DNA from: Candidatus Saccharimonadota bacterium
Lineage (GTDB): Bacteria; Bacteroidota; Bacteroidia; Flavobacteriales; Blattabacteriaceae
Assembly (NCBI RefSeq): GCF_000709555.1
Contig: NZ_CP006873.1
Coordinates: 150,001-182,000, forward strand
Length of the DNA stretch: 32,000 nucleotides
Direction: 5' to 3'
The position numbers were made by a program, and so were the translations under genes. Positions 25,124 to 25,910 of this stretch are shown piece after piece (positions within the stretch are counted from its first letter, which is position 1; each line of letters opens with the position of its first letter). Under the pieces are notes generated by a model. That model worked only from the letters and a program-made list of their open reading frames with translations, searched no databases and had not been told where the DNA came from.

Positions 25124-25910
25124 TGAACATTTTAGAACAAATTATTACTATAAAACATAAGGAAGTTTCCAGAAATAGGCATCTTGTTACTATAAAAACC
25201 CTGGAAAAAAGTCCTTATTTAGAAAGAAATTGTCATTATTTATCTAATAATTTAAAAAAAAAACATCCCAATATTATTGCAGAGTTCAAGCGGAAATCTC
25301 CTTATAAGGGGATTATTAATAATCGGGTTTCTGTAAAAGAAGTAGTGAAAGCTTACGAAAATGCGGTAGCTTCTGGAATATCTATATTAACAGATTCTTT
25401 TTTTTTTCTGGTAAAAATGAAGATATTACAGAGGCTAGAGAAATCGTTTCTTTACCTCTCTTGTGTAAAGATTTTATAATTGACGAATATCAAATTATTG
25501 CTGCGAAATCGCTTGGAACAGATATCATTTTACTAATTGCTGAGGTACTCTCCAAAGAGAAAATACAGTCTTTGACCCATGTCGCTAAAATACTAGGTTT
25601 AGAAGTACTTCTGGAAATGCATTCTGAAAACGAATTATACAAAATTAATGAATATATCGATATTATAGGAATCAATAATAGAAATCTTAGCACTTTTTTT
25701 GTCGATATACAACGTTCTGTCGAATTATTTAAAATAATACCTAATAATTTTATAACAATCTCAGAAAGTGGTCTATCTGATCCTATTAAAGTGAGTTTTT
25801 TAACCCAAATGGGCTTTGCCGGCTTCCTTATTGGTGAAATATTTATGCGTTCTTCTCATCCTGGAAAACAAATGGAAGAGTATATTAAACAAGTTAACCT
25901 AAAGACATAA
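25123..25910 (+). pseudogene. trpC: indole-3-glycerol-phosphate synthase interrupted by a -1 frameshift in a T10 run
   Basis: Two tracked ORFs (25123-25479 and 25461-25910) together cover one IGPS. The N-terminal part has IIAEFKRKSPYKGII...[10 protein letters not shown]. After the T10 run (25398-25407), the next frame reads [43 protein letters not shown]...ISESG...GFLIGE. Confidence 0.9.

What the first reader, a model, noticed from the sequence alone, without database searches (positions are those of the whole stretch)
25393..25415. trpC split by a -1 frameshift inside a T10 homopolymer in an otherwise intact trp operon
Reading GAT TCT TTT TTT TTT CTG GTA.. gives [10 protein letters not shown].. 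and terminates at 25479. One extra T (T11) would give [34 protein letters not shown].., a continuous indole-3-glycerol-phosphate synthase. All six other trp genes are intact and tightly packed, so loss of trpC would make the whole operon pointless. Long homopolymer tracts in AT-rich endosymbionts are known sites of RNA-polymerase slippage that can restore a fraction of in-frame transcripts. The same tracts are also classic sites of sequencing error.
Basis: partly seen in the sequence, partly recalled or inferred. Interest (0 to 1): 0.62.

Follow-up and report, generated by a model that had tools for sequence, protein, structure and literature searches.

The report
Slippery poly-T frameshift in symbiont trpC
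The tryptophan-pathway gene trpC of a scale-insect symbiont really is broken by a run of ten T's that is one T short, but relatives carry 9, 10 or 11 T's and the gene still evolves like a working gene, so it is most likely read by slippage; this rescue is already known and has been published for this gene.

Summary
trpC (25123..25910) is split at a T10 run (25398-25407), and the other six trp genes are intact.

The window is the published genome of Candidatus Walczuchella monophlebidarum LLAX (309,299 bp).

The lesion is unlikely to be a sequencing artefact.
- Two independent Icerya purchasi assemblies and one I. seychellarum assembly also carry T10.
- Several Drosicha-clade assemblies and one unidentified lineage carry T9, which is also out of frame.
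- Only the two Crypticerya symbionts carry T11, giving an intact 264-aa TrpC.
- The other long tracts of the operon have the same length in every lineage that could be matched.

No lineage has a second stop or indel in trpC. Its dN/dS is 0.33, against 0.22-0.49 for its neighbours, and it is also 0.33 on branches below a shared frameshift.

The best reading is a hypermutable tract whose wrong lengths are tolerated because RNA-polymerase slippage, possibly with ribosomal slippage, restores the frame in some products.

Rosas-Perez 2014 raised the idea for this genome, and Choi 2025 names trpC explicitly. Earlier follow-ups in this scan reported the same kind of lesion in carB, argF', rng and secY of this genome. 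The finding is real, ordinary and already known.

The parts
25123..25407 (+). trpC 5' part (IGPS profile positions 1-106). It reads in frame from ATG 25123 up to and through the T tract.
   Evidence: Carries the AEFKRKSP motif.
25398..25407 (+). T10 homopolymer, one T short of the in-frame length (T11). This is the frameshift site and contains the slippery heptamer T TTT TTT in the 0 frame.
   Evidence: The orthologous tract is T11 in Crypticerya symbionts, T10 in Icerya symbionts and T9 in the Drosicha clade and ERZ15609813.
25477..25479 (+). Premature TAA stop of the shifted upstream frame, after a 23-residue out-of-frame tail (LVKMKILQRLEKSFLYLSCVKIL).
25407..25910 (+). trpC 3' part in the -1 frame (IGPS profile positions 96-252), open from the tract to the stop at 25908-25910.
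   Evidence: Carries the CKDF, LLEMH, GINNRNL, ISESG and LIGE motifs.
22138..23547 (+). trpE (anthranilate synthase component I), intact.
   Evidence: dN/dS 0.36.
23551..24129 (+). trpG (glutamine amidotransferase), intact.
   Evidence: dN/dS 0.22.
24122..25123 (+). trpD (anthranilate phosphoribosyltransferase), intact. Its last base is also the first base of the trpC start codon.
   Evidence: dN/dS 0.49.
25917..26537 (+). trpF (PRA isomerase), intact.
   Evidence: dN/dS 0.48.
26534..27727 (+). trpB (tryptophan synthase beta), intact.
   Evidence: dN/dS 0.22.
27737..28504 (+). trpA (tryptophan synthase alpha), intact.
   Evidence: dN/dS 0.38.

Best explanation
The trpC gene of Walczuchella LLAX carries a real one-base deficit in a poly-T tract that encodes the Phe-rich loop DSFFFSG. 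The tract mutates often by replication slippage, and across the genus it is fixed at 9, 10 or 11 T's. The wrong lengths persist because they are not fully inactivating. On a run of 9-10 U/A base pairs, RNA polymerase slips and adds (or more rarely drops) bases, so some mRNAs carry an in-frame tract and yield full-length indole-3-glycerol-phosphate synthase. A -1 ribosomal slip on U UUU UUU would give the same protein and may contribute. Shown here: the lesion, its recurrence in independent assemblies, the absence of any secondary damage, and undiminished purifying selection. Inferred: that slippage is what provides the in-frame product, and what fraction of products are in frame.
For: (1) Tract lengths in ten lineages. 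LLAX has T10. Icerya purchasi has T10 in two independent assemblies (OZ034981 and CP170564). I. seychellarum has T10. Crypticerya genistae and C. multicicatrices have T11, with an annotated 264-aa TrpC, and the Logan assemblies of the same runs agree. Drosicha pinicola, D. corpulenta, D. contrahens and other runs have T9, and so does ENA ERZ15609813. (2) The A10 tracts in trpD, trpC-5' and trpB and two A8 tracts have the same length in every lineage where they could be matched. Of 67 tracts of 9 nt or more that could be matched between LLAX and the I. purchasi genome, 63 have equal length. Homopolymer calling is therefore reliable, and this tract is the exception. (3) No lineage has any other stop or indel in trpC. 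By contrast, the dead glyS remnant in the same window has fallen to about 79% identity with 20-22 gap openings. (4) Parsimony-based dN/dS for trpC is 0.33 (P = 3e-8 against neutrality), within the 0.22-0.49 range of its six neighbours. On branches below a shared frameshift it is also 0.33 (P = 9e-5), the same as on the remaining branches (0.32). (5) The T11-length product aligns without a gap to solved IGPS 6y88 across this loop. (6) Published measurements: transcription insertions concentrate in A/T runs and rise exponentially with run length up to 11 nt in Buchnera (PMC5574713). In Buchnera and Blochmannia, 12-50% of transcripts of frameshifted genes are corrected (PMC5009743). (7) A MutL domain was not found in this genome, although MutS is present, which fits unstable tracts.
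Against: The T9 lineages need +2 or -1 bases, and both are rarer than +1 according to PMC5574713. The Sodalis-like co-symbiont of Llaveia encodes all essential amino-acid pathways, so selection on trpC could be relaxing. The 5' part alone shows dN/dS of 0.47 genus-wide and 0.84 for LLAX against I. purchasi, on small counts. Much of the measured constraint may predate the frameshifts if they are recent and independent. There is no independent assembly of LLAX itself.
Confidence: 0.55

Rival explanations
1. Young pseudogene. trpC is dead in LLAX, Icerya and Drosicha symbionts, and tryptophan (or the IGPS step) is supplied by the co-symbiont. The apparent constraint is left over from before recent, independent frameshifts.
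For: The enterobacterial (Sodalis-like) co-symbiont can make all ten essential amino acids (Choi 2025). Walczuchella is rich in pseudogenes, and Choi et al. list tryptophan among the eroding pathways. trpA appears split in the C. multicicatrices symbiont. The tract is out of frame in at least three clades.
Against: dN/dS is 0.33 on branches below shared frameshifts, no higher than elsewhere. None of the eight out-of-frame sequences has a secondary lesion. All other trp genes stay constrained, which would be pointless without an IGPS step. From general knowledge, replacing this single step from outside would require phosphorylated intermediates to cross membranes twice.
Confidence: 0.17
2. Rescue is mainly translational: a -1 ribosomal frameshift on the U UUU UUU heptamer, not polymerase slippage.
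For: In the 0 frame the tract reads T TTT TTT, a classical X XXY YYZ slippery site, and a -1 slip gives exactly DSFFFSGK. Reviews describe corrective frameshifting in small-genome organelles and endosymbionts (PMC5009743).
Against: The downstream fold is not significant (z = -1.16; 28 of 200 shuffles fold at least as well), and the only hairpin starts about 15-22 nt after the tract. The T9 lineages would need the opposite shift (+1 or -2), so a single ribosomal mechanism cannot cover both states. The site is not conserved as a frameshift, since Crypticerya symbionts are in frame.
Confidence: 0.1
3. Assembly artefact in LLAX. The true tract is T11 and the gene is ordinary and intact.
For: The LLAX assembly was a Velvet/Phrap hybrid that included 454 reads, which miscall homopolymers.
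Against: Coverage was 1571x, almost all Illumina. The three in-frame A10 tracts of the same operon are called at the same length as in the other assemblies, and 63 of 67 long tracts agree with the I. purchasi genome. Out-of-frame lengths at this exact tract are the rule in the genus and are reproduced in independent data sets.
Confidence: 0.1
4. DNA-level heterogeneity. The polyploid symbiont population holds a mix of tract lengths, and the in-frame genome copies supply TrpC. The assembly shows only the majority length.
For: The tract changes length between close relatives: T10 in Icerya symbionts against T11 in Crypticerya symbionts at about 99% identity. MutL was not found.
Against: Logan contigs from several runs pass through the tract with one length, and it agrees with the polished genomes. 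This rival could not be tested at read level.
Confidence: 0.08

Closest known systems
Poly(A)-tract frameshifts rescued by transcriptional slippage in Buchnera aphidicola and Blochmannia (Tamas et al. 2008; Wernegreen et al. 2010, PMC2877537; summarised in PMC5009743)
   Same: An AT-rich insect endosymbiont. A single-base frameshift inside an A/T run of 9 nt or more in an otherwise intact biosynthetic gene. The lesion is shared by related lineages and purifying selection continues.
   Different: The run here is T on the coding strand. The tract is fixed at two different wrong lengths (-1 and -2) and at the right length in different lineages of one genus. No transcript data exist for Walczuchella.
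Published Walczuchella annotations: Rosas-Perez et al. 2014 (PMC3971599) and Choi et al. 2025 (PMC12188211)
   Same: Same genome and same gene. The 2014 paper says homopolymer-frameshift pseudogenes may keep function. The 2025 paper lists carB, trpC and mnmE as pseudogenes with poly(A/T) tracts longer than 8 bp that are potentially rescuable by transcriptional slippage.
   Different: In the text held here, neither paper gives per-lineage tract lengths, the comparison with invariant neighbouring tracts, or a selection test restricted to post-frameshift branches. Pseudogenes were excluded from their dN/dS set.
Other slippage candidates noted by this scan in the same genome (carB, argF', rng, secY) and in the Icerya purchasi symbiont (lipB, argF')
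   Same: Same kind of lesion, same genus and same inference from conservation plus constraint.
   Different: The summaries shown for argF' and rng describe the same break in every relative examined. Here the tract length differs among relatives, and two lineages are in frame.
Programmed transcriptional slippage (Thermus dnaX, Shigella mxiE) and -1 ribosomal frameshifting (E. coli dnaX)
   Same: A run of 9 or more A/T or an X XXY YYZ heptamer allows a second frame to be reached.
   Different: Those sites are conserved and make two useful products or regulate expression. This one looks like a tolerated mutation: there is no conserved stimulator, the length varies, and the shifted-frame product is a 23-residue nonsense tail.

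Membership tests
Indole-3-glycerol-phosphate synthase (TrpC, Pfam PF00218) | Profile match above the curated cut-off over the whole domain | tested here: met
   The two pieces match profile positions 1-106 (61 bits) and 96-252 of 254 (158 bits); the cut-off is 27 bits.
Indole-3-glycerol-phosphate synthase (TrpC, Pfam PF00218) | One continuous reading frame | tested here: not met
   The gene is split at the T10 tract in LLAX. The orthologues in Crypticerya symbionts are continuous at 264 aa.
Indole-3-glycerol-phosphate synthase (TrpC, Pfam PF00218) | Conserved active-site motifs. The catalytic E/K, K, E, N and E-S residues are recalled from Sulfolobus IGPS studies, not tested here. | tested here: met
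   AEFKRKSP, CKDF, LLEMH, GINNRNL, ISESG and LIGE are all present in the LLAX pieces. The orthologue aligns without a gap to solved IGPS 6y88 across the tract-encoded loop.
Slippage-rescued homopolymer frameshift of endosymbionts (Tamas 2008 / Wernegreen 2010 class) | The frameshift lies inside an A/T run of about 9 nt or more, and the gene is otherwise intact | tested here: met
   T10 at 25398-25407. No other stop or indel in any of ten lineages.
Slippage-rescued homopolymer frameshift of endosymbionts (Tamas 2008 / Wernegreen 2010 class) | The lesion is retained across diverged lineages with purifying selection | tested here: met
   T10 is shared by two Icerya symbionts, and T9 is shared by the Drosicha clade and ERZ15609813. 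dN/dS is 0.33 on branches below shared frameshifts, P = 9e-5. Caveat: the node joining Drosicha and ERZ15609813 has only 59% bootstrap support.
Slippage-rescued homopolymer frameshift of endosymbionts (Tamas 2008 / Wernegreen 2010 class) | Transcripts show tract-length heterogeneity with an in-frame fraction | not testable with these tools
Programmed -1 ribosomal frameshift site | Slippery heptamer X XXY YYZ in the 0 frame | tested here: met
   TC[T TTT TTT] TTT CTG.
Programmed -1 ribosomal frameshift site | Stimulatory structure a few nucleotides downstream | tested here: inconclusive
   The fold of 25408-25500 has z = -1.16, and 28 of 200 shuffles fold at least as well. The hairpin starts about 15-22 nt downstream.
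Programmed -1 ribosomal frameshift site | The shift site and the required shift are conserved in relatives | tested here: not met
   Relatives need no shift (T11), a -1 shift (T10), or a +1/-2 shift (T9).

The most novel reading that the evidence does not exclude
The frameshift may be as old as the genus. With stepwise length changes, an out-of-frame T10 ancestor needs only two changes (-1 leading to Drosicha and ERZ15609813, and +1 back into frame in Crypticerya symbionts). An in-frame T11 ancestor needs three. On that reading, an essential-pathway enzyme has been made only through slippage across the whole diversification of Walczuchella, in two different wrong lengths. One lineage has reverted, which gives a natural in-frame versus out-of-frame series for measuring how much enzyme slippage delivers.
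Probability: 0.2. Interest if true: 0.4.

Novelty: already known. Interest (0 to 1): 0.22.

Why it matters
The finding affects how the metabolic role of this symbiont is read. If trpC counts as dead, Walczuchella cannot make tryptophan in Llaveia, Icerya or Drosicha hosts, and the co-symbiont must. If it is rescued, the ancient symbiont still supplies tryptophan. The three tract lengths in one genus would also make a convenient natural series for measuring slippage-dependent expression. The principle is established, however, and this gene has already been flagged in print, so the case is confirmatory.

Tried and rejected
- **Read and RNA evidence.** No pileup or cDNA heterogeneity could be examined.
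- **First crude dN/dS.** This LLAX versus I. purchasi comparison wrongly suggested a broken trpE in the relative. The cause was my end-extension across in-frame indels, because gene calls show a 428-aa TrpE there. I replaced it with reference-anchored codon alignments and tree-based counts.
- **Downstream RNA structure as a frameshift stimulator.** Not significant.
- **Loss of mismatch repair as the full explanation for tract instability.** Only partly supported: MutS is present as an 829-aa open frame, while a MutL domain was not found. GreA is present.
- **Supplementary tables of Choi 2025.** These would give per-genome trpC status but are not held.
- **Run accessions in the literature.** The search identified only SRR32776426, which belongs to the Drosicha contrahens genome project, and did not give its library type.
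- **Split-enzyme idea.** I considered an N fragment plus a C fragment restarted at TTG 25461. I set it aside because the stretch between the tract and that codon has too few substitutions to test, and the C fragment would lack helix alpha-2.

Full report
**What is in the sequence.**
- Positions 25393 onward read GAT TCT TTT TTT TTT CTG GTA. The T run is exactly ten bases, 25398-25407.
- From ATG 25123 the frame gives MNILEQ…[10 protein letters not shown]. It then runs 23 nonsense residues to a TAA at 25477-25479.
- The frame entered one base earlier (25407) reads [29 protein letters not shown]… to the stop at 25908-25910.
- Pfam IGPS matches the first piece over profile positions 1-106 and the second over 96-252 of 254. 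Both matches are far above the cut-off.
- This is the only IGPS locus in the genome.
- The genes rho, trpE, trpG, trpD, (trpC), trpF, trpB and trpA lie in one tight block. All except trpC are single ORFs with near full-length domain matches.

**Where the window comes from.**
- The assembly is one contig of 309,299 bp with 32.7% G+C.
- That is exactly the size and composition given for Candidatus Walczuchella monophlebidarum LLAX. This is the flavobacterial symbiont of the giant scale insect Llaveia axin (Table 1 of Choi et al. 2025, PMC12188211; Rosas-Perez et al. 2014, PMC3971599).

**Is the lesion real or a sequencing error?** I collected the orthologous tract from nine other sources. Hosts are inferred from the genome sizes in Table 1 of Choi et al.

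| Lineage | Source | Tract | Frame |
|---|---|---|---|
| Icerya purchasi symbiont | OZ034981 (the same-genus genome G001) and CP170564, two independent assemblies | T10 | out |
| I. seychellarum symbiont | CP170563 | T10 | out |
| Crypticerya genistae symbiont | CP170565, plus a Logan assembly of the same run | T11 | in, annotated 264-aa TrpC |
| C. multicicatrices symbiont | CP170566, plus a Logan assembly of the same run | T11 | in, annotated 264-aa TrpC |
| Drosicha pinicola and D. corpulenta symbionts | CP170567, CP170568 | T9 | out |
| Several further Logan runs, including one from the D. contrahens genome project | | T9 | out |
| Unidentified lineage | ENA ERZ15609813 | T9 | out |

- The flanking bases differ among clades: TC…CT in LLAX, TA…AT in Icerya and Crypticerya symbionts, and TA…CT in Drosicha symbionts. 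These are therefore distinct sequences, not copies of one record.
- Within the same operon, the A10 tracts of trpD, of the trpC 5' part and of trpB, plus two A8 tracts, have the same length in every lineage where the flanks could be matched.
- Genome-wide, 63 of 67 matchable tracts of 9 nt or more have equal length in LLAX and the I. purchasi symbiont.
- Homopolymer calling in these assemblies is therefore dependable, and this tract is a true exception.
- For LLAX itself there is no second assembly, and its assembly did include some 454 reads. I leave about a 10% chance that its own T10 is a miscall.

**Is the gene decaying?**
- In all ten lineages both parts of trpC are open and free of indels apart from the tract.
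- I built a tree from the six neighbouring genes. It is (LLAX,(Drosicha clade, ERZ15609813)) against ((I. purchasi, I. seychellarum),(C. genistae, C. multicicatrices)). Support is 59% for the Drosicha+ERZ15609813 node and 97% for Icerya.
- I then counted synonymous and nonsynonymous changes by parsimony.
- trpC has dN/dS 0.33 (45.5 synonymous and 56.5 nonsynonymous changes; P = 3e-8 against neutrality). Its neighbours give 0.22-0.49.
- On branches below a frameshift shared by descent (the T9 clade and the Icerya pair) the ratio is again 0.33 (P = 9e-5). On all other branches it is 0.32.
- A truly dead gene in the same window, the glyS remnant, has dropped to about 79% identity with 20-22 gap openings against its intact Crypticerya orthologue.
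- So trpC behaves like a gene still in use.
- Caveats: counts are small on single branches. The 5' part alone is less constrained (0.47). If the frameshifts are recent and independent, part of the constraint predates them.

**How it most likely works.**
- The in-frame length is T11. It gives D-x5-G, which aligns without a gap to the SVLTDVDFFQG loop of solved IGPS 6y88.
- LLAX and the Icerya symbionts are one base short. The Drosicha clade is two short.
- One added U in the mRNA, or a -1 ribosomal slip on U UUU UUU, gives DSFFFSGK in LLAX.
- In the T9 lineages the frame needs +2 or -1 bases in the RNA, or a +1/-2 ribosomal shift.
- A single process that yields a ladder of transcript lengths covers both states, and RNA-polymerase slippage is such a process.
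  - In Buchnera, transcription insertions concentrate in A/T runs and rise exponentially with run length up to 11 nt (PMC5574713).
  - In Buchnera and Blochmannia, 12-50% of transcripts of frameshifted genes carry a corrected frame (PMC5009743).
- A ribosomal contribution is not excluded. However, I found no significant downstream structure (z = -1.16), and the required shift differs between lineages.
- The tract's instability at the DNA level fits the apparent lack of MutL, although MutS is present.
- All of this is inference from anatomy and comparison.

**Rivals.**
- The main rival is that trpC is a young pseudogene and the Sodalis-like co-symbiont supplies tryptophan. That co-symbiont encodes all essential amino-acid pathways.
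  - It does not explain why trpC and all six neighbours remain constrained in lineages that have carried the frameshift since before they split.
- Assembly error in LLAX, mainly ribosomal rescue, and a mixed-length symbiont population remain possible at low probability each.

**History of the tract (inference).** With stepwise changes, a T10 ancestor needs two steps: -1 toward Drosicha and ERZ15609813, and +1 in Crypticerya symbionts. A T11 ancestor needs three. In a tract this mutable the difference is not decisive, but the frameshift could be as old as the genus.

**Novelty.**
[quoted passage not shown] It also says the tryptophan pathway is complete but includes pseudogenes.
- Choi et al. 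[quoted passage not shown]
- Earlier follow-ups of this scan reached the same reading for carB, argF', rng and secY in this genome, and for lipB and argF' in the I. purchasi symbiont.
- The finding is real, ordinary for this kind of organism, and already known.

Noticed in passing
L045:8598-9583 (C. multicicatrices symbiont CP170566); compare window 27737-28504: trpA is called as two pieces (200 aa and 94 aa) in this symbiont, which has an in-frame trpC. The first piece matches TrpA profile positions 4-180 only. In the I. purchasi, I. seychellarum and C. genistae symbionts, trpA is one ORF but 20-40 residues longer than in LLAX, with extra sequence after about residue 183.
   Followed up: partly
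window 22138-22260 and the orthologous 5' ends of trpE in L047, L054 and L057: The LLAX trpE ORF is 469 aa, while relatives are called at 427-430 aa. Alignments show 12-18 gapped bases near the 5' end, and 13 in the Drosicha clade, which has an extra 42-aa ORF upstream. The true trpE start, and whether Drosicha symbionts have a small 5' lesion, is unresolved.
   Followed up: no
G000 genome positions 51540, 64943, 253866 and 304528 (outside the window): These are the only four of 67 matched long A/T tracts whose length differs between LLAX and the I. purchasi symbiont: T11/T10, T9/T8, A9/A5 and A9/A10. The first lies near the secY site noted earlier by this scan.
   Followed up: no
G000:C1:261644-262207 (MutS); whole genome for MutL: MutS is present as an 829-aa open frame, but no MutL (PF01119) match was found. 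Mismatch repair may therefore be incomplete. GreA is present at G000:C1:230862-231083.
   Followed up: partly
window 30140-31560: The glyS remnant aligns to the intact 476-479-aa gene of the Crypticerya symbionts at only about 79% identity with about 20 gap openings. I used it here as a yardstick for real gene decay. This scan had already reported it.
   Followed up: partly
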